64,000 nucleotides of DNA, taken from the IMG/VR virus record IMGVR_UViG_3300046058_000006, one strand, 5' to 3'. This stretch comes from an uncultured virus (IMG/VR IMGVR_UViG_3300046058_000006). Its lineage: Duplodnaviria > Heunggongvirae > Uroviricota > Caudoviricetes. The notes below the pieces were generated by a model, which was not told the origin of the DNA, searched no databases, and was given only the letters and a program-made list of their open reading frames with translations. Both the position numbers and the translations under genes were made by a program. Positions 704 through 61,126 of this stretch are shown piece by piece; within the stretch, counting starts at the first letter, position 1, and every line of letters starts with the position of its first letter.

Positions 704-1561
704 TTAGTTGCTTTCAGTAGGGTTTTCGCCGATAATATCACACATTTCAGCCATGCGGTTTCGCACTGTCACCGTCGAAACGTCGCCGATTTCCCCCGCT
801 TCAGTTTGCGTTACAGGTTCGTCCGCGAACTGTGCGGCTAAATAAACAGCGCCGGCCGCAACGCCGCTTGGATTTTTGCCGTTGTCGTATTCAGACCCCC
901 GCCAAGCGTCGATTAGTTCCCGCGCGTGCGCGTCGTCTACACCCGCGCGCTGTGCATAGCGGCCTACGTATTCTTCCGGGTCCATAATCGGTGTTACCAA
1001 GTCATAGCGCCGCCGAAAGTTGCGGTACGCTACGTCCGCGTCCGCCTTGTCCGGCAGGTATTCTTCGATTTCATGCAGTGACCTGGTAGCCCCGTTCTGC
1101 CGGCAGATTATATAGAAGCACGCGCCGCATACGCCTTCAAGCGTCAGCGCTATCAGGCCGTCCGAATGAACCTGTTTGAACAGGTACGCGGCCTGTTCGA
1201 TATAGCTTTCAGGCAGGTCTAAGGCCGCGCCCAAACGGTTTATCTCCGATAAACCGGCTTCCCTTGTGTGGCTGTTTTCCGTCCGCGCGCGGTATTCTTG
1301 GTGCCGCATACGCGACCGTTTCAGCGGGTCGCTTGTGTCGTTCGTCGCGGTCATTCGCGTGCGCAAACCGTTATCCGGCAGGCGGTTCGTGCGTTGCGCG
1401 CCAGTGCGCCGGCGTTCTTCGATTTCTTCGCTGTTGAACGCGCGCCATTCAGCGCCCCGGTCTATCGGTTCGTCGTCGTAGACAAGCCCGCAGGATTCAC
1501 AAAACGTTTCCTTGTCGGTTGTAGAAACCCGTCCGTTACATTCTTCGCAGGCAAAAGCCAT
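704..1561 (-). CDS. tfb: Virus-encoded transcription initiation factor IIB (TFB)
   Basis: N-terminal Zn ribbon CEEC..CESCG, IDRGAEWRAF B-reader, two cyclin repeats, GKNPSGVAAGAVY, C-terminal HTH TQTEAGEIGDVSTVTVRNR. Confidence 0.95.
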   Translation of the reverse strand: MAFACEECNGRVSTTDKETFCESCGLVYDDEPIDRGAEWRAFNSEEIEERRRTGAQRTNRLPDNGLRTRMTATNDTSDPLKRSRMRHQEYRARTENSHTREAGLSEINRLGAALDLPESYIEQAAYLFKQVHSDGLIALTLEGVCGACFYIICRQNGATRSLHEIEEYLPDKADADVAYRNFRRRYDLVTPIMDPEEYVGRYAQRAGVDDAHARELIDAWRGSEYDNGKNPSGVAAGAVYLAAQFADEPVTQTEAGEIGDVSTVTVRNRMAEMCDIIGENPTESN

Positions 1562-2421: not shown

Positions 2422-2630
2422 GCTAAGATCGCCTAAGACGGCCGATTAGAAATCGGCGGCTGAAACAGGTTGTTAACCAGGCCGTTGTAACTTCTACAAC
2501 GGTAAGCGGTCTAACAAGTAGCGGTTAGTAGCGGCTTGTCCGCGATAGAATTAATAAAATCGTGCCTATACTAACCGCAATTTGTTAAAATCGGGGGGCG
2601 ATTGCTAAAGATGTATCTACCGACGCGGTT

Positions 2631-5600
2631 TTAGTCGGTCGTCGCTTGCACGCCCAAGCTTCCATCAAGTTCCGGCCTGCCGGTCCGTTCTGGTTCCGGC
2701 TGTGTGTCCGTATCCGGTTCGATCGCTATGTCGGTCGAAACCGAACCGCCGATTTCAGCTTGATCTATGATCGCCTGTAGGGTTTCGGCGGCTTCTTCGA
2801 CGGTTTCGACTTCAATCACGTCCATGTTAAATTCTTCAAACATGGCAAACAGGTTATTAGGAACCTGTTTAGCAGGCATTAGGGTCGCGGTCTGTCCGGT
2901 TCCCTGTGCTTCGGTCGGGTCGTCGTCCGCCGGCACGTCACTGGCGCGAAGCCCTGCGTTCTGGTTCGCGCGCATAAATTCGGCGAATTTCGGCGTCGCG
3001 TTCCCGCTCTTGTCAGCGATATAGCTTTTCCGGGGCGTGCGGAAGCGCCCTGTATGGATCGCGGTATAATCGAACGTTTCCATATCGACGCCTTCCGCGA
3101 AGATACTGTTTTGCGACAGCGCCAGGTTCATGCCGCAACTGGCGCGCTTGCGGATAGCCGACAGATCGCGCACGTTTTCGGCAGGTCTGTACCACAGGCC
3201 GGGAATTTTTTGCTTGGCGCGATCGGCGCGCACTTTCGAACCGCCGAACGCTATGCCAGTGCCGCTATTCAGTTTACCGATCGTTTCGGCTACGTCCGCG
3301 ACCTGTTGGTTCGGGCTTCGGTCCGTTGCTAATTTCACAACGGTTACGCCGCCCATGACAGGCGCAAAGTCATCCATGTACCGCACTGGTTCGGGCGGGT
3401 CGCCGTGTATCTTTTCGTGTACTTCAGTCATTAATGTAATATCATTACCCGCGAACCAGTAGGTAGCATCTTCCGGCAGGTCTTGAAAGACGCGGCCTGT
3501 GTCGCCGACTATATCTATGGATTTTTCGTTGCCGTCAGCGCGCGTTAACACGCCCTGAAGGTCGTCGTCCGGGTCATGGTACAGTATATTTAGCAGTTCG
3601 CGCGCATGACCTGGATAGTTATTCTTCAGCCGCTTTCGCGTTTCGAAGAAGTCGGCTTCGGGCTGTAGTTCGGCCAGGCGCGTGCGAATGTCGGCTACAA
3701 GGTCGTGATATGCGTTATCATTTTCGCCCCATGATTCGACGCCGCTTTCTTTTATTAGCGCCGGCAGTTCTAAGATAAATTCGGCGACGCTTTCTATATC
3801 GTCGTGAATCCGGTCGGTCCGTTCTAAGTCGCCGACCCGTTCGATTATGTGTTCTGCTGTACCTGTTAGCCCATCCAGTGCGCCCATGTTCGTGCCGGTC
3901 TTGTAGCCTGTGCGTTCGCTTTCGAAGATTGTAACGCTTGTACTTATCAGCCGGCTAAGGGATGCTTCTTCGCTGGTAATTATCAGGTCAAAGTCGTTTT
4001 CGGTCGTCCGAACCACGTCTAACTTTTCCGGCACGGTTACGACCACGCGCGATTCTTGCGCGCCTTTTACGATCGCCTGGTACTGATTCTTTTCCGGGTC
4101 TATCTTTTCAAGCGCCGCCCATGGGTCTTTAGCGGTCTGTTCGGGGTATTCGTCGCTACTGTAGTTAAGTGGTGTGTCGTTTTCGCCCCACCCGCTTCGC
4201 GCCCATCGGCGACCGCCAAGGTATGCGGTATCAACCCCCATGTTAACCAGCTTGTCGCGGGTTGCTTGGGCTTCTTGATGGGACGGCGCGATATACACGG
4301 CGCGGTCAAAGTTATCCGCTTTCAGTTCTTTGCGGACGTTTTCGGCGACTTGGAAGCTTTTGCCCTGGCGTGCGATCCCCTGAAGGGACATATGTTCGTC
4401 CGCGCTTCCATCGACTTCTTTCACTGCGTGCTGTGCTATAACATCTTCAGCGGGGCCTTCCGCGCCTTCTACCTTGTCGCGGCCTAACGGGACGTTAGCC
4501 TTGTTACGGAGCCATTCAAGCGCCTGGTTGTATTCGTATTTCGTAAGGTGTTTGCCGTCGGTATCTGTGTCGTATTCGCTTGGCGCAAACATATCGTCCG
4601 CGTTCCGCAGGCCGGCTTCGATCGCCGCCCACATTAGACAGCGGTACGGTACTTTATCCTGCTGTTCGATTTGCTTGGACGCTTTGGCGTATTCCCAACC
4701 CCAAAACGTCGCCTTTGGGTTTCCTTCGACGCCAGCGTTGCCGCCGTTGAAGTCCGCGCCAAGGTATCCACAGTCGGCGTCAGCGTCGTAGCCCCGCGAC
4801 GCCAAGGCACAAAGCGAAAGCGCGTTGTGCGTACAGCTATGGCCTTCGCGGAAGCACCATACGGTTTCGCCGTTATATTCGGCGTTCGTGCCGGTTTCGC
4901 TACCGTGTAATGGGTGTGCGTGCTTGTCGCCGCTAAGATCGCCGCCGATCGCCGAATAGACCTGGCCTGTATCCAGTTCGAAGAACTGGCTACGTTCGCC
5001 GTCTACGCTTTGGCTGAAGTCGGTATCCAGTTCGTCCCACGTCGTGCGGTTCTTTTCGGCGCGCTTTTTGTTGCGGTACTGTTTCCGCGCACGTGCGCGA
5101 AGCCAGGAACGCGGTAGTTCGCGCATACCAAGCGTAGGCAGGGTATCAGGGACGTTTTCGACCGTATAGACCGGCGCTTCGTCGTCCGGCACTTTGTCAG
5201 CCGGGCGGTAGCTACCCGGCGCGTACATAAGCTTCGCTACGTTCGTGTTACGAAAGTCGGCGATAGTGCCGTCGCCGTCCCATTTTTCGGGAATACCGAT
5301 ACTGTCTAAAAGGATTTCATCGTCCGGGTCGTCCGGCTGTGCATAGTACAAGTGCGTACCGCCCGACCGCGACCTGATTCGTAGCGTCGGCTTGAACGAT
5401 TCGCTATGGGACTGCCGGACCTGTTCGTTATCTTCGTCTATCGCGTGAAATCGATCGCCCTGCTGAAAGATAAAGGCGACCGCGTGCGATCCGGGGTCGT
5501 TCTTGTGCTGTTGTAGGTACTTCAGCGCTTCGTGGGCGGTTAGGCGGCTTTCGGGTTCGCTTTGCCACTGTTGATCGAAGAAACCGCCGTCGCCGCTGTT

Positions 5601-6493: not shown

Positions 6494-6541
6494 TATGATG
6501 TATGGCTATCGGGGGATTAGTAAAGTTGGCGTCGGCGATCT

Positions 6542-7717
6542 TTAATATAGATTTTCGATGAAATAATCGCCGCCTGAAGGCATCTTAACCTTCAGGTCCG
6601 TGCTTCCGCCGTCTTTATCTTCGATATAGATAGCGGCGCTTTCGCGCGGAATGTTGTAGTTCGACGGATCGCCGCCAAGAATGGGAATTGGTTGCATGGC
6701 GTCGCCGTTCACAAATTTCTTATTCGTCTCATCTATGGTACGGGTATCCCATTCGATCGGTTCGTCTGCGTTGTTATTAGCTGGCGCGACCGCGAAGGTA
6801 ATAGACGGTTGTGGGGCGTCGCCCGCGCCTGGGTAGTTGCTGTTCATGCCGATCAACGCATGGGGTTCGTTGGCAACGATTGACCGCCAAGAAGCATCGG
6901 GGCCGGGGTCGGTCGCGGAAAGCGGGTTGTCGTAGTCCCAATAAGCGTTCCAAGCCCATGCAACCCTGCCGTGTCCGCCTTGATGGGATTGCACAAAATC
7001 AGACGTTCCGGCGGCATACCGGATGTATTCGCCGTCGCTTTCGCCGGGAACGCCGCGCGCATCTTCGCCGCGTTCGAACACGTAAGTTCCCATTAACACG
7101 TCACTTTGATCCGACCGCACGAAATTGCCAGGCTGATAACCCCGGAAGAACTGGCTGTTTTCGGCGCGATCGACCGGGACAGAATTATCGCCTTCGTAGC
7201 GGGCGTTCCGGTAGTTCACACGGGTTGTAAGCGGCCTGCGGTTAGACGTAGCGGTGATACTTGATCCGTCGCTGTTAACGTCCCATATCGCCAAGCGCGG
7301 CGCTTTACGGCCGGACAAGACGATGTTACTTTCTGTGTCTATGATTAGGCGATCCGTGCGCGTGCGGTCAACCGCCAAGTAGATCGTTTCATCGGACGAA
7401 TTAGCCGGAATGTCTACGTCGTGTACGTTTTCGCCGGTTACTTGGTCGGTTTCGGCGCGGTCGTCGCTTGCAAGATAGTGTCCGCCAAAGGCGGCTTCGC
7501 CAGTGTCGATCGTTACTGTCAGCCCGTTCGTTTCGAAGATACCAAAGGCGTTTAGCGGGCCGTCTAAGATTTCATTATCGGCGGTCGCTAACAGGTCCTT
7601 ATCAGTCGGCACGACGTATTCGTCGCCCGACTGTGCGATCGCTTCGGCCAGGCGCATAGAATCGACATTTCTTTGGTCGGTACTATCGCCATGCGTAGGT
7701 TCTGTAACAACAGTCAT
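6542..7717 (-). CDS. Tail fibre / tail tip protein
   Basis: N-terminal GLTVTIDTGEAAFGG fibre-attachment-like segment; position at the end of the tail module. Confidence 0.6.
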   Translation of the reverse strand: MTVVTEPTHGDSTDQRNVDSMRLAEAIAQSGDEYVVPTDKDLLATADNEILDGPLNAFGIFETNGLTVTIDTGEAAFGGHYLASDDRAETDQVTGENVHDVDIPANSSDETIYLAVDRTRTDRLIIDTESNIVLSGRKAPRLAIWDVNSDGSSITATSNRRPLTTRVNYRNARYEGDNSVPVDRAENSQFFRGYQPGNFVRSDQSDVLMGTYVFERGEDARGVPGESDGEYIRYAAGTSDFVQSHQGGHGRVAWAWNAYWDYDNPLSATDPGPDASWRSIVANEPHALIGMNSNYPGAGDAPQPSITFAVAPANNNADEPIEWDTRTIDETNKKFVNGDAMQPIPILGGDPSNYNIPRESAAIYIEDKDGGSTDLKVKMPSGGDYFIENLY

Positions 7718-19045: not shown

Positions 19046-19112
19046 TACGACAAGTTTATACGTATGCCGCTATTCTGGTTAATCGTAGCGGGCGAAGCCC
19101 GCTACACAAACC

Positions 19113-19328
19113 ATGAACGCAACGCAAACCGCCGTCGAAGAATTGGAAGCCGATCACAACGTGACTAACGTGTTCGTTACCCCTGCCGGTGAAATCAGGG
19201 TTGAAACGAACGTTACGACCGCCGAACCCGAAACCGTCGGCGAATCCTTGGCCCGCTGGATCGACGCGGACGTTAGCTTTTCCCGCGCGTCGGCTTCGGG
19301 GCGACTGTACTTCAGGGTCAACGCATGA
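19113..19328 (+). CDS. Small protein, paralog family A
   Basis: GEI...GRLYF; class promoter and leader hairpin upstream. Confidence 0.8.
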   Translation: MNATQTAVEELEADHNVTNVFVTPAGEIRVETNVTTAEPETVGESLARWIDADVSFSRASASGRLYFRVNA

Positions 19329-27287: not shown

Positions 27288-27422
27288 ATGCGAAAACTTT
27301 GCAAAAGGCCGTTTTGCCCGAACCAGAACCGCGCGAACAGACACGGGGTTTCGCCCATGCGCGCTCCGTTCTGTTCGGAAAACTGTTTTCAGATTTGGCG
27401 CGAAGAAAACTTAGAAGATTAG
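27288..27422 (+). CDS. 44-aa Cys-rich microprotein (C-x4-C...FCSxxC)
   Basis: MRKLCKRPFCPNQNRANRHGVSPMRAPFCSENCFQIWREENLED; class promoter exactly 33 nt upstream; below the ORF-track cutoff. Confidence 0.7.
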   Translation: MRKLCKRPFCPNQNRANRHGVSPMRAPFCSENCFQIWREENLED

Positions 27423-35927: not shown

Positions 35928-36263
35928 TTACTGTGCTTCAGCCGGCGCGTCAGCTTCGGAAAAGACCAAGTGATCGGCCGCACGGTGTGCGCGCTTCCGG
36001 GCGCGCCGCGAATCGTTATCAAAGATAATGTCGGAAATCCCCGACCATAGTAGATCGATTTCCCGGTCGGTTAGTTCGACGCTGTGCAAGCCGTCAGCCC
36101 ATCCGTTCGTTGTGTTCGAAAGCTTGTGTCGTAGTTCGGTCGCCGCTTTGCGGCTAATTTGGGGGTCGTTGTATTCGCGGTACGTGCGTCGTAGCACGCC
36201 CAAGGCGTCGCGGTACGTTCGGAACACGGACGCAGGCGCTTCGATTTCAGTAGTTTCGACCAT
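35928..36263 (-). CDS. Hypothetical protein, paralog of 35572-35886
   Basis: Class promoter and leader hairpin before ATG 36263. Confidence 0.8.
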   Translation of the reverse strand: MVETTEIEAPASVFRTYRDALGVLRRTYREYNDPQISRKAATELRHKLSNTTNGWADGLHSVELTDREIDLLWSGISDIIFDNDSRRARKRAHRAADHLVFSEADAPAEAQ

Positions 36264-36334
36264 GGTTTGTGTCGCGCGCTTCTTTGCCCGCGACAATTAA
36301 CCAGAACGCCCGGAAGAATATAAACTTGTCGTAT

Positions 36335-37347: not shown

Positions 37348-38223
37348 CTATCGATCGACTTCAAAGAAGCCGCCGCAGTCACACCATGCGATTTCAGTAT
37401 CGTCGTATTCACGCACGTCGTTAACGTCCGAACCGCAGTCGTCGCACATTAGGTTTTCAGCCGATCCAGTTGCGACGCTTGGGTTCGCTTCAAACATCGG
37501 GTCGTCCGCTATCTTGTCGCGGCTAACGATGCCAGGCGCGCCGCCTTTATCCGGCCCGTAACGGTATTCCGCGTCGCTGTTTGCATCCAGTTCCCTAACG
37601 AACAGGCGACCCGACCCGCAGGTATCACACGTCAGCTTGTCAGCGTTCGTTTGTAGAAACCGGATCGTTTTCGTCCGGTTCTTTTGCCAAGACCGACCGC
37701 CGCACGCATGACAGCCATACACAAACCGGAAGTCCCGGCCAGTATTGTACTTATCCAGGTTCGTGCAACCGTGTGCTTTGCCAAGCCACACGAAACGCGC
37801 CGTGTGACCCGCGATATGCCCGTGTAGGTACAGGTGTGCATGGATTAGCTCATGGCGCACGGTTTGGCAAACATCTTCCCACGTCTGTTGATAGTTCACA
37901 AGCTTCTTGCGAAGCAACCTGTGTTCCGTGATACCGACGCGGGCGACCCGGCGACCGTTTTCGATCTTGTACTTACAGACGCCCGCGCGTTTCGACGCGC
38001 GACTGTCCGAATAGAACCGAACGTCAGACCAAGGAACATCTAACAGTTCGGTTTCGGAAAGGAACCACTTGGCATAGCGTTCCGCCGCTTTCCGGGCGCG
38101 TTTCGCGTCAGCGTCAGCGGGCGGGCGCGTCGCGTCAACATGGGCTTCTTCCCAATTCTTCGCGTCAGCGTATTCTTCGGGGCGCGTTTCGCCTTCGGAC
38201 ACGGCCAGCACGGTTTCGGCCAT
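37348..38223 (-). CDS. SprT-like zinc metalloprotease with Zn ribbons
   Basis: RAGVC..TVRHELIH..GH..F followed by CxxC pairs; class promoter. Confidence 0.9.
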   Translation of the reverse strand: MAETVLAVSEGETRPEEYADAKNWEEAHVDATRPPADADAKRARKAAERYAKWFLSETELLDVPWSDVRFYSDSRASKRAGVCKYKIENGRRVARVGITEHRLLRKKLVNYQQTWEDVCQTVRHELIHAHLYLHGHIAGHTARFVWLGKAHGCTNLDKYNTGRDFRFVYGCHACGGRSWQKNRTKTIRFLQTNADKLTCDTCGSGRLFVRELDANSDAEYRYGPDKGGAPGIVSRDKIADDPMFEANPSVATGSAENLMCDDCGSDVNDVREYDDTEIAWCDCGGFFEVDR

Positions 38224-48329: not shown

Positions 48330-48487
48330 ATGTAACCGCTTAGGGCTATGCTACCGAACAGGATAAAGATACCGACTATAAAGCGCCAGGGACAGCGCCG
48401 CAACAGACCTTCGGTGATCAACCACCCGCACAGGTAGCCGCCGACTATCGGAATAGCGAACGCCAGGGCCGTTTTGCCGGCTAACAT
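48326..48487 (-). CDS. 53-aa 2-TM membrane microprotein
   Basis: MLAGKTALAFAIPIVGGYLCGWLITEGLLRRCPWRFIVGIFILFGSIALSGYI; overlaps both neighbours; not in the ORF track. Confidence 0.6.
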   Translation of the reverse strand: MLAGKTALAFAIPIVGGYLCGWLITEGLLRRCPWRFIVGIFILFGSIALSGYI

Positions 48488-48771
48488 TGCCCCGCGCCCA
48501 TGCCCGGCAGTTGGGTTACGTCTTTGACCCGAACGTACCGATCACATTCGGGACATTCGCCTTCGCAACCCTTGAAAACAAAGCTATTCGGGTCGCGGTC
48601 CATGCTTGGCATATAGGTACAGTCAAAGTCGTATGCTTGTAGGGTTGATACGCTTTGGCAAAACGGACAGCGCGCCAGCGTGCCGCGCGCATTATCAGCA
48701 ATGCCAGTTGTATACGACGCGCCCATCGGATCGGTTTTAGTCAGCGGGGGTTCGTAATTAGGCCCGGCCAT
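48481..48771 (-). CDS. Zinc-ribbon protein
   Basis: CPFC...CPEC; 12-bp inverted repeat over the start. Confidence 0.7.
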   Translation of the reverse strand: MAGPNYEPPLTKTDPMGASYTTGIADNARGTLARCPFCQSVSTLQAYDFDCTYMPSMDRDPNSFVFKGCEGECPECDRYVRVKDVTQLPGMGAGQC

Positions 48772-48841
48772 GGCTGTAACCAGCAGGTTACAGCCATAAA
48801 AAAGTTGTATAAAAGTCACACAAAGTCGCACCAAGCGCGAC

Positions 48842-49108
48842 TTAGACCCGTTCGTTGCAACCTACGATAAGGTTTCCACAGTCCGCACAGGTGATTCTAC
48901 AGCCGTCCTTTGTCGGCGCGCCGCCGTCGGCACAGTGATAACAGTCTACCATCGGGATGCTTGGGTAATTCGCGGTCATACTAAAATCTGTTCGTCGCGG
49001 CACAGGCACGTTAGTTTTATACGATCCAGGCGTGTACGAATAGCTGGCGCGATAGTAAAGCGCCTTGGGACCTAACGGCGTGGCATATCCGTTCGGTGTC
49101 TGATTCAT
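48842..49108 (-). CDS. Small zinc-finger protein (true start may be 48979)
   Basis: CYHC..C..TCADCG..C. Confidence 0.6.
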   Translation of the reverse strand: MNQTPNGYATPLGPKALYYRASYSYTPGSYKTNVPVPRRTDFSMTANYPSIPMVDCYHCADGGAPTKDGCRITCADCGNLIVGCNERV

Positions 49109-49187
49109 GCGCTGTCAAAAGCGGGCTTTCGTCCGCTTTCGTACAACGACGTAGGATTTATATACGACCCGCGCATTAGAACGAAAT

Positions 49188-49318
49188 GCGCGTGGAAATC
49201 CCGCGCGCGGACACGTCAAACATGGTTTGTCAGCAACCCCACAGGGTTGCTTCGGTGTCAATGCCGCTTATCTGTTACCAAAAGCACCGGAAAGGGCCGG
49301 CCTTTTGCCGCCCTTTGT
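49188..49318 (+). ncRNA. Candidate structured ncRNA 1
   Basis: TATA at 49157; hairpins GCGCG/CGCGC, CAAAC/GTTTG, AGCAACCC/GGGTTGCT, closing GACAC/GTGTC, terminal AAAGGGC..GCCCTTT; no credible ORF. Confidence 0.55.
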
Positions 49319-49366
49319 TACGGTGTTTGGAAAAGTTTAAGTTACAAACAGCCGTTAGTAGGAAAT

Positions 49367-49428
49367 GCGCCGAAGCACACGGCGTAGCACTACAGTAAAC
49401 AGCGGGTACTTTCCTTCCACGCTGTTTT
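49367..49428 (+). ncRNA. Candidate small ncRNA 2
   Basis: TATA at 49336; hairpins GCGCCG/CGGCGT and AAACAGCG/CGCTGTTT followed by a T-run. Confidence 0.5.
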
Positions 49429-49464
49429 CGAAACGTTTAAATTACAACAAGCCATTAGTGTAAA

Positions 49465-49640
49465 TTGCCCCGTAAGGGCAACGCGGCTGTCGGTGTCAGC
49501 CGGGCCTGGATCACCCGGCGCAAGCGGGACACGCTTGCAATCCGATCATATGCGACCGGCGAATCCGTGCGGCACGACGCACGTCCGCGCCTGTAGCGCG
49601 GAAGTTATATTCGGTTCGCCGGTTAACACCTCCTTACAAT
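49465..49640 (+). ncRNA. Candidate structured ncRNA 3
   Basis: TATA at 49436; at least six stems (TTGCCC/GGGCAA, GGCTG/CAGCC, CCGGG/CCCGG, GCAAGCG/CGCTTGC, ACCGGCGAA/TTCGCCGGT, TCCGCGC/GCGCGGA); no ATG after the promoter. Confidence 0.6.
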
Positions 49641-49642
49641 CG

Positions 49643-51310
49643 TTAAGCGTCAGCTTCAGCGCCGCCGCCGTTTTCACCTTCCCCGCCTTCACCGCCCGCT
49701 TGCGCGCCTGCGATTTCCGCCAAGGTTTCGCCGTCCGCCGCTTCGATTTCCTGAAGCGCGTTTTCAAGTTCGGCGTAGTCCATGTTCAAATCCTGTTCTA
49801 CGACCTGTTCAAGCGGTAGGTAAGCGTCTACACCGCTCTGGATATAGAGCTTCCAACCCTGCATATACTTATACCAGGCTTCAGCGTCAAAGTCTTCGTC
49901 CTTCAGCGGGCTTTTCGATTGATCGGATTCGATCGCAAATTCTACACTGTCTATAAGATCTTCGCGGTCGCTGTCCGCGACGCTAACAATCCCCCGATCG
50001 ATCAAGAAGCGCGCCTTCTTCCGAAAGATACCAGTGTAGCCGTCGGAAATCCGCCGGCGAATCCGGTTAACGTCCCGGTCGAACTGTTCTACACGCGGTT
50101 CCGTAACGTCGCGGTTGATACTGTCGCCAAAGCCGACATACGCCTTCGGAACGTTAAGCCCGCCATAGATCGTATCGATGCTCATACGGATCGACGGTTC
50201 TATGTCCGGCAGTTCCGGCGTGTGCCATTCGGTTTCGACGCCGGGCGGCACGCCGAAGATACCACCTGGCGAATTATGCGCGCCGCCGCCCGATCCATCC
50301 AGGTCCGAATAGTCGGTTTCGTCGCCGCTTCGCCGCCGGTTTTCCTTCCACCCGCGCGACCCTGAAGCGCCCGACCCGCGCCCGCGCAAAGCGTTAATGA
50401 ACTGTTGCATCTGTTGGGTCGTCCATTCGATTATATCCCCGGAAGGCAGTTCGACCTGGTTGAAGCTAACGTTCGCACGCGGATGGGCGATATTTTTCAG
50501 CGCCGCGTTGTAGTCGTCGCGCCTGTTCTGTACCGCTATCGCTTCTTCCGCAACGGGTTCAACGATCGACATACCGCGAACTTGGCCGGCCTTTCCTGTA
50601 CTGCCGGCGCTGTGGTTCGGCGTGTCCGGCATGGGGTTCCGAACGATCTTGGTAACGTCGCGCTGTGAAAGCGGCACTACGTCGGCTTCAGCCTTGGACG
50701 AAGCGCGCCCCATGTTCTGAATGTAACAAGCCCATTCGCCGCGCGCATTCTGCGGCGTGCCTTCAGGCACGTTCGCCGCGTCGTCGTCCGGTCGAATCAG
50801 CCGATCGCTTTCGGGATAACAAAGAATGTCAACAGATAACGGATCGATCGACTGAAAGCCGGAAAAGTGGCTTGGATCGGTCGGGTCGTCGTACATATGT
50901 TCAAGCAATACGGTTCCGTCCAAGTCATGCGCACGCGCGTCGTACCACAACTGCGGGCCTAACGGCTTGTCGTATTCGCCGCCGTAAATAACGCATTGAT
51001 CGGCCCACTTTCGTAGCAGGTCGGTTAGGTCGTCGTCATCCGACCGAACAGTAAAGCCAGGCCGGGCGACTTCCCCGCAACGCAAATCCAGGCCGGGGTT
51101 GATGTACGGGTTTTCCCGGTACAGCCGCCGGTATAGCTGTATCTGGTTACGATCGGGGGAACTGCGTTCGTAGCCGCCGGCGCTGAAGCCGCCGAACCCT
51201 GAAGTCGTAGTTTGTGGGTCGGGAATGTCGCCCAAGAAATCCGGGCGGTCGCCGTCGCTTAGTGCAAGCGCGGCTTTTGTAATGTCGCGCGCGTCGCTAT
51301 ATAAGCTCAT
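49643..51310 (-). CDS. Portal protein
   Basis: YRRLYRENPY, DGTVLLE, RGMSIVE, GLNVP..G; between TerL and gpF-like genes. Confidence 0.9.
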   Translation of the reverse strand: MSLYSDARDITKAALALSDGDRPDFLGDIPDPQTTTSGFGGFSAGGYERSSPDRNQIQLYRRLYRENPYINPGLDLRCGEVARPGFTVRSDDDDLTDLLRKWADQCVIYGGEYDKPLGPQLWYDARAHDLDGTVLLEHMYDDPTDPSHFSGFQSIDPLSVDILCYPESDRLIRPDDDAANVPEGTPQNARGEWACYIQNMGRASSKAEADVVPLSQRDVTKIVRNPMPDTPNHSAGSTGKAGQVRGMSIVEPVAEEAIAVQNRRDDYNAALKNIAHPRANVSFNQVELPSGDIIEWTTQQMQQFINALRGRGSGASGSRGWKENRRRSGDETDYSDLDGSGGGAHNSPGGIFGVPPGVETEWHTPELPDIEPSIRMSIDTIYGGLNVPKAYVGFGDSINRDVTEPRVEQFDRDVNRIRRRISDGYTGIFRKKARFLIDRGIVSVADSDREDLIDSVEFAIESDQSKSPLKDEDFDAEAWYKYMQGWKLYIQSGVDAYLPLEQVVEQDLNMDYAELENALQEIEAADGETLAEIAGAQAGGEGGEGENGGGAEADA

Positions 51311-60242: not shown

Positions 60243-60485
60243 TCAACCCCAATTCGATTCATTCAGCAAAAACACGAAATAGAAGAACTTACCGACCACA
60301 TACGGCAGGACGGCTATAACGATGGTAAGCGCCGCGCCAGCATGAATCGATACGTGAAACACGTTAGAAATTACCATGGATACGATACCGAAACAGGCCA
60401 ACAGGATAGCGCCGATAAACCAGCACACTACGCCGTCAACCTGTACGCTGTCATCATTCCAAATAAATTCATCTTCTTCGGTCAT
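60243..60485 (-). CDS. Small membrane protein
   Basis: Two hydrophobic helices; ATGA overlap. Confidence 0.65.
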   Translation of the reverse strand: MTEEDEFIWNDDSVQVDGVVCWFIGAILLACFGIVSMVISNVFHVSIHAGAALTIVIAVLPYVVGKFFYFVFLLNESNWG

Positions 60486-61126
60486 GCTGTCACCGCGTCA
60501 GCGATCCGGCGCGCTTTCTTTTGACCTATGCCATTAACGTTCGTTAGCTTTTCCGGTTCGGCGTGTGCAACGCGGAACACGCCGCCGGCGCTAACGAAAT
60601 GATCCAGCAGGCGCGACGCCAGTTCCGGGCCGACTGCCGGCAGGCCTTCGACAAGGTAACGCGGGCGCTTTTCAGGCGGCACGTCCGGCGCGTCGCGGAT
60701 ACTGGCCGGCGAAGCTTTGTCGTTGCGAAATTCGTTCGCGCGCTTGTCAACGACGTAGGCGGTCATTTCCTTATCGAACGTCGGCAGGACTTCTATACCC
60801 ATGCGCGGGACGGCTTCAATCGCGCCGATCACCGCTTTGTCGCTTATGTTGCGCATTGCCATGGTTTCTTTCCACCCGCCTTCAAGAATCAGCACGGGCT
60901 TCAGGTCGTTTTCTTCGCACGCGCTATACAGCGCGCCAAGTTGTGACCATATGCTGTTTTCGTTCTGCGTCAGCCGATCCACAAAGTCCGGGTAGCGCTT
61001 CCGTTCTATCAGGTATTCGCCAGCCAGGAAATCACCCGCGCCAAGCTTGTCCTTTTCGTAGTCGTCGCCGCTTTCAGCGAACGCGGCCGCGTGCATTTCC
61101 GGCGGTTCGCGCGTATCAATGATCAT
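60482..61126 (-). CDS. ERCC4/XPF-family structure-specific nuclease with HhH
   Basis: IIDTRE, GDF..IERK..D, LILEG, GLPAVG and GIGQKKA HhH motifs. Confidence 0.93.
   Translation of the reverse strand: MIIDTREPPEMHAAAFAESGDDYEKDKLGAGDFLAGEYLIERKRYPDFVDRLTQNENSIWSQLGALYSACEENDLKPVLILEGGWKETMAMRNISDKAVIGAIEAVPRMGIEVLPTFDKEMTAYVVDKRANEFRNDKASPASIRDAPDVPPEKRPRYLVEGLPAVGPELASRLLDHFVSAGGVFRVAHAEPEKLTNVNGIGQKKARRIADAVTA

What the first reader, a model, noticed from the sequence alone, without database searches (positions are those of the whole stretch)
49150..49642. Three tandem structured ncRNA candidates with identically spaced promoters beside the portal gene
Seen: three promoter-like units share exact geometry, TTTA-N15-TTAG-N4-AA(A/T)TGC, at 49157, 49336 and 49436 (the last two exactly 100 nt apart). 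Each is followed at once by a 5' hairpin and densely base-paired sequence with no credible acidic ORF. RNA3 has a possible loop-loop contact (GTGTC with GACAC), and RNA1 uses the same GACAC/GTGTC helix. None folds as a tRNA. Inference: an undescribed viral small-RNA cassette, possibly decoys, ribozyme-like RNAs or a packaging-associated RNA given the portal adjacency.
Basis: partly seen in the sequence, partly recalled or inferred. Interest (0 to 1): 0.8.

Follow-up and report, generated by a model that had tools for sequence, protein, structure and literature searches.

The report
Halovirus small-RNA cassette beside portal
A gene-free gap of about 650 bases next to the portal gene of an uncultured virus of salt-loving archaea carries three or four of the virus's own promoters, each followed by a folded RNA rather than a protein gene, so the virus probably makes small non-coding RNAs whose job is still unknown.

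Summary
The motif TTTA-N15-TTAG-N4-AAWTGC occurs three times, only at 49157, 49336 and 49436 (+); none of 100 shuffles had a match. The window is a tailed halovirus with its own TFB. Its real genes use promoters with the same TATA-to-AAWTGC geometry, so the three sites are credible archaeal promoters, pointing against the late operon. Each is followed by a 5' hairpin and stable structure; the RNA3 window ranks 3rd of 2555 genome windows.

No ORF is conserved. The 70-aa ORF stops at 31 aa and the 43-aa ORF at 5 codons in a 97%-portal relative. tblastx against a 70% relative finds only the neighbouring Zn-ribbon gene. Hairpins keep pairing through about six two-sided changes.

Not supported: the GACAC/GTGTC contacts (lost in L001) and any tRNA, Rfam, ribozyme or pRNA match. 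No expression data could be had, only two relatives exist, and the strand rests on the promoters alone. RNA1 shares a leader layout with real mRNAs and may be a decayed gene.

Verdict: probable new virus-encoded small RNAs, function open, moderate interest.

The parts
49157..49189 (+). Promoter P1 (TATA TTTATA, -10 TTAG, initiator AAATGC)
   Evidence: Pattern match. 32 of 33 bases are identical in L001. The upstream ACGAC..AGGA resembles the repeated gene-promoter family. L002 has the same layout with one mismatch.
49188..49334 (+). RNA1 candidate (~145 nt): 5' hairpin 49188-49208, local hairpins, hairpin 49232-49251, 3' stem 49279-49329. Ends are inferred.
   Evidence: MFE -62.9 kcal/mol, z -4.0 on +, against -59.0, z -2.8 on -. 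The consensus fold with L001 has 44 pairs and 0 broken; 2 pairs changed on both sides and 3 on one side. The ORF is cut to 31 aa in L001. The hairpin-ACAC..AAAC-ATGG layout is like the mRNA leaders at 19055 and 36324.
49336..49368 (+). Promoter P2 (GGAAAAG + TTTAAG)
   Evidence: 29 of 33 bases are identical in L001.
49367..49430 (+). RNA2 candidate (~62 nt): 5' hairpin, 13-nt linker, hairpin 49397-49427 ending in a T4 run (49425-49428)
   Evidence: Fold z -2.3 on +, -1.0 on -. 65 of 67 bases (49369-49435) are identical in L001, against 88% identity at portal third codon positions. Absent from L002 and from one X8 contig, which replaces 49360-49532.
49436..49468 (+). Promoter P3 (BRE CGAAA, TATA TTTAAA, initiator AATTGC)
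   Evidence: Consensus from PMC4983044.
49467..49642 (+). RNA3 candidate (at least 175 nt; 3' end unknown; first T4 run on + is at 49671-49674, inside the portal ORF). It has a 5' hairpin, a variable region, and a conserved 3' module.
   Evidence: MFE -83.7 kcal/mol, z -3.6. Rank 3 of 2555. Hairpins are kept in L001 with compensatory changes. The 3' module is shared with L002.
49499..49519 (+). RNA3 hairpin with invariant 9-nt loop CCUGGAUCA
   Evidence: Window stem GCCGGG/CCCGGC, L001 stem GUGGG/CCCAC. Two adjacent pairs changed on both sides and still pair.
49537..49550 (+). Invariant 14-nt motif GCAAUCCGAUCAUA, predicted single-stranded
   Evidence: Identical in window, L001 (which also has a second 10-of-14 copy) and L002. 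Unpaired in the MFE.
49557..49624 (+). RNA3 Y-shaped 3' domain (long stem enclosing two hairpins)
   Evidence: Pair 49568/49581 changes U-A to C-G in L001 and in contigs of runs X2 and X8. Pair 49584/49602 changes U-A to C-G in L001.
49625..49636 (+). AACACCUCCUUA: anti-Shine-Dalgarno-like tail (the minus strand reads GGAGGUG)
   Evidence: AACACCTCCT is invariant in 3 of 3 genomes. It is the only GGAGGTG in the 64 kb on either strand. 10 of 10 bases match the last 10 nt of E. coli 16S rRNA.
49093..49100 (+). TCGGTGTC motif, copy 1 (copies 2 and 3 at 49252-49259 and 49490-49497)
   Evidence: 4 matches in 64 kb, 3 of them in this 405-nt stretch, all on +. Also present in L001 and L002.
49016..49145 (+). 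Possible fourth unit (P0 TTTATAC plus hairpins plus terminator-like hairpin 49117-49142); weak in the window
   Evidence: 29 pairs, none broken, no two-sided changes. L001 and an X8 contig carry a better BRE (GGAAAG) that the window lacks. It overlaps the non-conserved N-terminal half of the 88-aa ORF.
48842..48951 (-). Flanking small Zn-ribbon gene. Only the last ~36-48 codons of the 88-aa ORF 48842-49108 are conserved.
   Evidence: tblastx window vs L002, E 1e-19. In L001 the upstream frame is closed: only a 65-aa ORF remains.
49643..51310 (-). Portal gene, convergent with the cassette
   Evidence: phrog_9232 portal, E 2e-40.

Best explanation
The 534-nt gap between the portal gene and a small Zn-ribbon gene (about 650 nt if the over-called 88-aa ORF is trimmed) holds three, possibly four, independent transcription units on the + strand.

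Each unit is a virus-type archaeal promoter (BRE/TATA, -10 TTAG, initiator AAWTGC). Transcription would start at about the G of TGC, so the RNA begins with a hairpin. Each then continues as a structured, non-coding RNA: RNA1 ~145 nt, RNA2 ~62 nt with a hairpin plus U4 end, and RNA3 at least 175 nt. They are read by the host RNA polymerase, against the direction of the late structural operon.

RNA3 is modular. It has a 5' hairpin, a fast-changing middle, and a conserved 3' module: a single-stranded 14-nt motif, a Y-shaped stem, and an anti-SD-like tail. This 3' module is the only part shared with the 70% relative.

Most likely mode of action (inferred, not shown): stable regulatory RNAs that act by base pairing. 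Because they are convergent with the portal operon, they are perfect antisense to any read-through between the portal and the downstream head genes, as with the phiH1 Tant precedent described in PMC8707807. The conserved single-stranded motif of RNA3 suggests an additional target in trans.

Shown: the motifs, their spacing, their likeness to the promoters of real genes, the absence of conserved ORFs, and the conservation of hairpins. Inferred: transcription, RNA ends, strand and function.
For: Promoters:
- 3 of 3 motif sites lie on one strand, against 0 matches in 100 shuffles.
- Eight repeated promoters elsewhere in the window have the same TTTA-to-AAWTGC-type spacing: 17895, 19055, 25586, 27255, 30981 and 46584 on +, 38254 and 36324 on -. 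I picked these by eye from the 25 rows. Each sits just upstream of an ORF of 44-291 aa.
- P3 carries the exact haloarchaeal BRE CGAAA (PMC4983044).
- The virus encodes a TFB.
- The layout is kept in L001 (3 sites) and L002 (1 site with one mismatch, plus a second TATA followed by a hairpin).

Non-coding:
- tblastx between the window and L002 finds only the Zn-ribbon gene.
- The ORFs stop at 31 aa and at 5 codons in L001.
- The 32-aa ORF has 6 of its last 12 residues changed.
- On the minus strand, an indel follows the GTG directly, and the 14-nt motif sits in different frames in the window and L002 (read).

Structure:
- z-scores are -4.0, -2.3 and -3.6.
- Genome rank is 3rd and 15th-53rd of 2555.
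- All six hairpins compared fold in L001 as well, with about six two-sided pair changes: 49236/49247, 49500/49518, 49501/49517, 49521/49537, 49568/49581 and 49584/49602.
- The 49568/49581 change also appears in contigs of two other runs.

Constraint: 49109-49189 is 80 of 81 identical and RNA2 65 of 67 identical to L001, where portal third positions are 88% identical.
Against: - No expression evidence of any kind.
- Only two relatives exist, both from one metagenome, so covariation is thin.
- On the raw MAFFT alignment of RNA3, 9 of the 14 pairs that changed were broken, 3 were kept with two-sided changes and 2 with one-sided changes. Shifted-partner controls gave 9-14 broken and 0-2 two-sided. 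The case therefore rests on hairpin-by-hairpin refolding.
- Folding does not tell the strand. Summed MFE over 8 units is -471 on + and -475 on -, and the second unit of L002 folds far better on the minus strand (-61.4 vs -41.4).
- RNA3 is only 63.5% identical to L001, with 50 gap columns, so much of it is under little constraint.
- RNA1 has the same hairpin-ACAC..AAAC-ATGG layout as two real mRNA leaders, and CATGGTT is kept in all three genomes. It could be a decayed or tiny gene.
- U-runs after RNA1 and RNA3 are short. The terminator scan found 3 sites against 1.8 expected.
- No convincing target was found inside the virus; the best complementary matches have E 0.1-2.
Confidence: 0.5

Rival explanations
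1. The promoters launch long counter-transcripts into the portal and terminase genes, as seen in halovirus HF2. The structured stretches are only stabilising 5' leaders, and the function is antisense control of late genes, not discrete small RNAs.
For: - RNA3 has no T-run before it enters the portal ORF; the first T4 is at 49671-49674.
- The orientation is convergent with the portal gene.
- HF2 makes long antisense transcripts from repeat-borne promoters, and phiH1 uses an antisense RNA (PMC8707807: abstract, sections 3.1 and 4 read).
Against: - RNA2 ends in a hairpin plus U4 directly before P3.
- Three promoters within 280 nt would be redundant for one long transcript.
- The conserved single-stranded motif and the compensatory changes in RNA3 hairpins point to a function of the RNA itself.
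Confidence: 0.17
2. The units are decayed or very small protein genes ('moron' remnants). The promoters and an mRNA leader survive while the ORFs have rotted, or only tiny peptides are made.
For: - RNA1 shares the hairpin-ACAC..AAAC-ATGG layout with the leaders of real genes at 19055 and 36324.
- CATGGTT is kept in the window, L001 and L002.
- The virus does encode tiny Cys-rich proteins, such as the 44-aa ORF after the 27255 promoter.
- RNA3 diverges faster than synonymous sites.
Against: - ORF lengths after the shared ATG are 59, 19 and 35 aa, and only about 2-6 N-terminal residues are alike (L002 read).
- No peptide is conserved in any frame.
- Hairpins inside the 'ORF' change in a compensatory way.
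- Invariant motifs of 14 and 10 nt persist at 70% portal identity in otherwise unalignable sequence.
Confidence: 0.15
3. The functional molecule is the minus-strand late mRNA (a structured inter-cistronic region or long 3' UTR of the portal message with a Shine-Dalgarno-like site), or the DNA itself (protein-binding repeats, origin or packaging signals). The + strand 'promoters' would be incidental.
For: - Minus-strand folding is as stable as plus-strand folding for RNA3 and better for the second unit of L002.
- A hairpin plus T4 on the minus strand lies at about 49117-49142.
- GGAGGTG sits 6 nt after the portal stop codon.
- TCGGTGTC occurs three times like an iteron.
Against: - No start codon follows the SD-like site at a usable distance in the window or L001, and in L002 the site lies about 190 nt from the portal stop.
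- Only 4 of 85 crude genes have even a 5-nt SD core, so this virus hardly uses SD sites.
- No GC-skew turn occurs at 49 kb.
- Three BRE/TATA/initiator sets on one strand, conserved in relatives, are hard to call incidental.
Confidence: 0.1
4. The gap is a remnant of a haloarchaeal non-autonomous mobile element (a PATE of the IS605/TnpB type), like the highly transcribed PATE found in Halorubrum tailed virus DL1.
For: - A tailed halovirus is reported to carry a 489-bp PATE that is its most transcribed region (PMC10544981, passages).
- The middle of the cassette is swapped in one X8 contig, and L001 has a local duplication.
Against: - No second copy occurs in the 64 kb.
- blastn finds no match in plasmid or phage collections at E<=1.
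- The hairpins near the two ends are not alike, whereas similar near-terminal palindromes define PATEs (PMC3119063, passages).
- No TnpB-like protein was seen among the 49 ORFs scanned against Pfam.
Confidence: 0.03

Closest known systems
Intergenic-repeat promoters and counter-transcripts of halovirus HF2 (Russ, Pfeiffer and Dyall-Smith 2021, PMC8707807)
   Same: Repeated AT-rich promoter elements in a tailed halovirus, with TATA and start-site region both important. Some face against neighbouring genes and give antisense transcripts. The window has its own family of 8 repeated gene promoters plus P1-P3.
   Different: The HF2 repeats sit in front of genes or start long transcripts. Here three promoters in 280 nt are each followed by a short structured non-coding stretch. 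There is no sequence similarity, and the virus is unrelated: the best portal matches in phage records are 20-23% identical.
phiH1 Tant antisense RNA (as summarised in the discussion of PMC8707807)
   Same: A halovirus-encoded small counter-transcript that pairs with a viral mRNA, so that the duplex is cut by a host RNase.
   Different: Tant targets an early lytic transcript. Here the complementary RNA would be the late portal-to-head read-through. Nothing was tested, and the conserved hairpins and single-stranded motif are not needed for simple cis-antisense action.
PATE-derived non-coding RNA in Halorubrum tailed virus DL1 (PMC10544981)
   Same: A region of about 300-500 nt without a real gene in a tailed halovirus, abundantly transcribed, and suggested to act as ncRNA.
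   Different: That element is a mobile repeat shared almost identically with the host genome. This cassette has no other copy in any collection searched and lacks matching terminal palindromes.
Promoter-hairpin leaders of this virus's own genes at 19055 (+) and 36324 (-)
   Same: Same initiator, a hairpin from the first bases, then ACAC..AAAC and ATGG. RNA1 has this layout.
   Different: Those leaders run into ORFs of about 70 and 111-122 aa with acidic, plausible products. After RNA1's ATG no ORF is conserved.

Membership tests
Haloarchaeal basal promoter | TATA box (TTWT-type) about 25-30 nt before the start site, with BRE (CGAAA) just upstream | tested here: met
   P3 has CGAAA, 2 nt, then TTTAAA. 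P2 has GGAAAAG then TTTAAG. P1 has AGGA then TTTATA. Consensus from PMC4983044.
Haloarchaeal basal promoter | WW element near -10 and a start-site motif shared with known promoters of the same genome | tested here: met
   TTAG lies 8-11 nt before AAWTGC in 3 of 3 sites. The same TAAWTGC-type initiator follows 8 gene promoters of this virus.
Haloarchaeal basal promoter | Measured transcription start or reporter activity | not testable with these tools
   No RNA run is listed for this DNA. A reporter assay like that of PMC8707807 is needed.
tRNA / tmRNA | Cloverleaf recognised by ARAGORN | tested here: not met
   0 genes in the whole window.
Any Rfam 15 family (including self-cleaving ribozymes, phage pRNA, CRISPR direct repeats, C/D sRNAs) | Covariance-model match | tested here: not met
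   0 matches at gathering score over 64 kb. 0 matches at E<=10 over 48700-49800.
phi29-type packaging RNA | RNA bound to the portal of proheads and needed for packaging | not testable with these tools
   Adjacency to the portal is the only link. The virus has a classical large terminase.
PATE (IS605-derived non-autonomous element) | Multiple copies in genomes; similar palindromes near both ends | tested here: not met
   No second copy in the window. No blastn match in plasmids or phages. The hairpins differ in sequence. Host genomes of the sample could not be searched.
Small protein genes (leaderless or leadered) | Reading frame and peptide conserved in relatives | tested here: not met
Structured non-coding RNA (generic) | Base pairs kept through compensatory changes in relatives | tested here: inconclusive
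   About six two-sided changes keep pairing. Only 2-3 sequences are available, and the alignment-wide count for RNA3 is no better than shifted controls apart from the two-sided class (3 vs 0-2).
16S rRNA 3'-tail mimic (anti-SD decoy) | Exposed CACCUCC-type sequence identical to the 16S tail, able to bind SD motifs | tested here: inconclusive
   10 of 10 nt equal the E. coli 16S end, and 9 nt (TGGATCACC) equal the bases just before it. The haloarchaeal full SD GGAGGUGA is given in PMC3986360; the window matches 7 of 8. Exposure and binding were not tested. In the MFE, ACACC is paired with GGUGU.

The most novel reading that the evidence does not exclude
RNA3 may be a virus-made mimic of the 3' tail of 16S rRNA.
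- Its conserved 3' end, AACACCUCCUUA, carries the anti-Shine-Dalgarno sequence. This is the only such site in 64 kb, and it is invariant in all three genomes.
- A hairpin with an invariant loop carries the 9 bases that precede that tail in 16S.

Such an RNA could soak up SD-bearing host mRNAs. Alternatively it could act as a decoy for a host factor or defence nuclease that recognises the 16S tail. The virus itself would be spared, since it hardly uses SD sites (4 of 85 crude genes).
Probability: 0.06. Interest if true: 0.85.

Novelty: new member of a known kind. Interest (0 to 1): 0.5.

Why it matters
Very few non-coding RNAs are known from archaeal viruses, and none is in Rfam for tailed haloviruses. 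My library searches found only HF2 and phiH1 counter-transcripts and one transposon-derived RNA.

A compact cassette of promoter-driven structured RNAs would be a handle on how haloviruses time late genes or interfere with the host. It sits inside the head-assembly operon and is conserved where the flanking sequence is not.

The same analysis exposes the virus's own promoter 'grammar': a repeated promoter family plus a virus-encoded TFB. That makes the prediction cheaply testable with existing Haloferax reporter systems. If the anti-SD reading were right, it would be a new way for a virus to touch translation.

Tried and rejected
Searches for relatives
- Portal-based scans of metagenome contigs and genome contigs found none.
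- Portal and MuF scans of viral contigs returned only the same two contigs.
- DNA-pattern scans:
  - The 14-nt motif in viral contigs gave 121 stretches; of the 123 loci then held that I filtered, only L001 (also fetched as L016) and L002 were related.
  - The motif pair gave 14 stretches in metagenome contigs and 16 in genome contigs, all chance matches by inspection or organism.
  - The P2/P3 promoter pattern found only the L001 contig.
- blastn against phages and plasmids found no match.

Expression
- No RNA holder is listed for this DNA.
- The contigs laid cannot show RNA.
- Parts of the stretch lacked cover in some runs, and the table of differences was cut (56 substitutions and 39 indels not shown), so full variant sequences could not be rebuilt.

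Ideas tested or considered and dropped
- CRISPR-repeat mimic, suggested by the RNA1 hairpin (a resemblance recalled from memory): no Rfam CRISPR-DR hit and no match to plasmids that carry arrays.
- C/D-box sRNA: the would-be D box is not conserved (read).
- attP or tRNA fragment: ARAGORN found none, and no integrase was seen among the 49 ORFs scanned.
- Origin of replication: no skew turn.
- Split ribosome-binding site plus micro-ORF on the minus strand: the ORFs are 7-12 codons and not alike (read).
- Targets of the RNAs inside the virus: only chance-level matches.
- GATC as a special site: it is common, 347 in 64 kb.

Other
- The strand test by folding and G-U counts was ambiguous.
- I tried to reach a haloarchaeal 16S through the genome search; no locus was obtained, so the E. 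coli 16S end was used.
- Earlier notes of this scan: none.
- Supplements of papers were not opened.

Full report
WHAT THE WINDOW IS

The 64 kb are from a tailed virus of haloarchaea.
- Pfam and PHROGs name a portal (49643-51310, -), large terminase, Mu-F-like head protein, tape measure, capsid protein, family B polymerase and helicase.
- The proteins are acidic.
- A TFIIB/TFB homologue lies at 704-1561.
- CTAG occurs once where about 240 are expected.
- The only portal relatives among phage records are haloviruses, at 20-23% identity.
- DNA runs labelled halite metagenome hold the stretch.
- No whole genome is held for the window.

THE OBSERVATION

None of 100 shuffles had a match. The pattern was fitted after the fact, so this number overstates the surprise.

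Independent support comes from the rest of the genome. A looser scan (TTTA, 21-24 nt, A-W-T-S-B) gave 25 sites against a shuffle mean of 12.4 and a maximum of 23. Among them I recognised by eye a family of eight long, nearly identical promoter repeats: 17895, 19055, 25586, 27255, 30981 and 46584 on +, and 38254 and 36324 on -. They end in TAAWTGC-type initiators at the same distance from TTTA. Each sits just before an ORF of 44 to 291 aa in the same direction.

P1-P3 share that geometry. P3 has the textbook haloarchaeal BRE CGAAA (PMC4983044, passages). In the gene promoters, the ATG inside AAATGC is present in only two of the eight, so it belongs to the initiator and is not a start codon. The same therefore probably holds for P1 and P2.

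NON-CODING NATURE

The gap lies between two minus-strand genes.

The 88-aa ORF on its left is over-called. Only its Zn-ribbon end is conserved in L002 (tblastx E 1e-19), and the upstream frame is closed in L001. The gene-free stretch is therefore about 650 nt rather than 534.

In relative L001 (portal 97% identical):
- the 70-aa ORF stops after 31 aa;
- the 43-aa ORF stops after 5 codons;
- the 32-aa ORF keeps its length, but 6 of its last 12 residues differ.

Against L002 (portal 70%), no peptide in any frame of the gap is conserved.

STRUCTURE

All three units start with a hairpin and fold well. The z-scores are -4.0, -2.3 and -3.6 on + and -2.8, -1.0 and -3.4 on -. Among 2555 windows of 150 nt, corrected for GC, 49476 ranks 3rd and the RNA1 windows rank 15th-53rd on the + strand. 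Other places, at 2451-2650 and 6501-6675, score alike.

Comparison with L001:
- RNA1 gives a consensus of 44 pairs with none broken, 2 changed on both sides and 3 on one side.
- For RNA3, the automatic alignment is poor around indels. Of the 14 pairs that changed, 9 count as broken, 3 are two-sided and 2 one-sided. Shifted controls are similar except for two-sided changes (0-2).
- Refolding each hairpin separately shows that all six hairpins compared exist in both genomes.
- The hairpin with the invariant loop CCUGGAUCA changes two adjacent pairs on both sides. The next hairpin changes one. The two arms of the 3' Y-domain change one each.
- The 49568/49581 U-A to C-G change is also in contigs of runs X2 and X8.

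WHAT IS CONSERVED AND WHAT IS NOT

Against L001:
- 49109-49189 is 80 of 81 identical;
- RNA2 (49369-49435) is 65 of 67 identical;
- RNA1 is 87% identical;
- RNA3 is only 63.5% identical, with 50 gap columns.

Portal third codon positions are 88% identical.

L001 has a local duplication of the 3' arm of a hairpin plus the 14-nt motif. One X8 contig replaces 49360-49532 with 107 other letters.

L002 has one long unit instead of three. Its 5' part resembles RNA1 (ACGUCA..CAUGGUU). Its 3' part carries the RNA3 module: AAUCGGUGUCA, the invariant 14-mer GCAAUCCGAUCAUA, a hairpin, and AACACCUCCU. This is followed by a second TATA plus hairpin unit.

The cassette is thus modular, and the 3' module of RNA3 is its conserved core.

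Two oddities:
- TCGGTGTC occurs 4 times in 64 kb, 3 of them in this gap on the + strand.
- The complement of the RNA3 tail, GGAGGTG, occurs nowhere else in the window. The tail equals the last 10 nt of E. coli 16S rRNA, and the loop hairpin holds the 9 nt before it. The haloarchaeal full SD is GGAGGUGA (PMC3986360, passages). Only 4 of 85 crude genes have even a 5-nt SD core upstream.

STRAND

Folding energies and G-U counts do not decide the strand. The + strand call rests on the promoters, on the hairpin plus U4 after RNA2, and on a few changes to G-U that would be A-C mismatches on the other strand. These are matched by about as many of the opposite kind.

WHAT IT IS NOT

- There is no tRNA.
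- No Rfam family matches, even at E<=10.
- blastn finds no match in phages or plasmids.
- No second copy occurs in the window.
- No origin-like skew turn is seen.
- A PATE, as found transcribed in HRTV-DL1 (PMC10544981; definition in PMC3119063), is not supported.

BEST READING AND LIMITS

Three or four promoter-driven, structured small RNAs are made against the late operon. They probably act by base pairing, in cis on portal-to-head read-through and perhaps in trans through the RNA3 motif.

RNA1 may instead be a decayed, leadered gene, because it copies the leader layout of real genes at 19055 and 36324.

No transcription data exist here. The family has three members, two of them from one metagenome. 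No relatives were found in metagenome or genome contigs.

Library searches for halovirus non-coding RNAs found nothing equivalent. The halite sRNA paper PMC7002113 mentions viruses only in its references. Supplements were not seen.

Noticed in passing
window 704-1561 (-): The virus encodes a TFIIB/TFB homologue (Zn_Ribbon_TF E 8e-9, TFIIB repeat E 6e-20). Similar genes occur in three Halorubrum tailed virus records and in Sulfolobales virus YNP1 (27-31% identity). It may serve the virus-specific promoter classes.
   Followed up: partly
window 17895, 19055, 25586, 27255, 30981, 46584 (+); 38254, 36324 (-): A family of eight long, near-identical promoter repeats (TTTATAC ... TAAWTGC), each just before a gene. 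It is the analogue of the HF2 intergenic repeats, in an unrelated halovirus.
   Followed up: partly
window 19080-19115 (+) and 36263-36300 (-): Two real genes have about 30-nt leaders made of a hairpin followed by ACACAAACC and ATG. This is unusual where most haloarchaeal mRNAs are leaderless, and it may be a regulatory leader family.
   Followed up: no
whole window: CTAG occurs once where about 240 are expected, while GATC is over-represented (347 vs 240). This fits avoidance of a CTAG-specific host restriction system.
   Followed up: no
window 48770-48797: A perfect 12-bp inverted repeat (ATGGCTGTAACC, 4 nt, GGTTACAGCCAT) lies between the TATA-like TTTTTTAT and the ATG of the 96-aa Zn-ribbon gene (48481-48771, -). 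It looks like an operator. This stretch is the 2nd most stable minus-strand window of 2555.
   Followed up: no
window 2451-2650 and 6501-6675 (+): Other intergenic stretches fold as stably as the cassette (ranks 1, 2, 4, 6 and 11 of 2555). They may hold further RNAs or terminators.
   Followed up: no
window 27288-27422 (+): A 44-aa Cys-rich ORF (two C-x-x-x-x-C / C-x-x-x-C pairs) directly follows the 27255 promoter repeat. It is a probable zinc micro-protein missed by length cut-offs.
   Followed up: no
window 48842-49108 (-): The 88-aa ORF is over-called. Only the last ~36-48 codons (a CxxC...CxxC ribbon) are conserved in L001 and L002. A TTTTAG box lies about 34 nt before the internal ATG at 48951.
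   Followed up: partly
L002 5856-5863 and 6036-6043 (locus coordinates, read on the minus strand): In the 70% relative, the second unit contains UGAUCGGA, a perfect 8-nt complement of the core of the invariant 14-nt motif in the first unit. No equivalent was seen in the window.
   Followed up: no
window 60482-61126 (-), 37348-38223 (-): An ERCC4/HhH nuclease (XPF/Hef-like) and a SprT-like protease domain protein are encoded by the virus.
   Followed up: no
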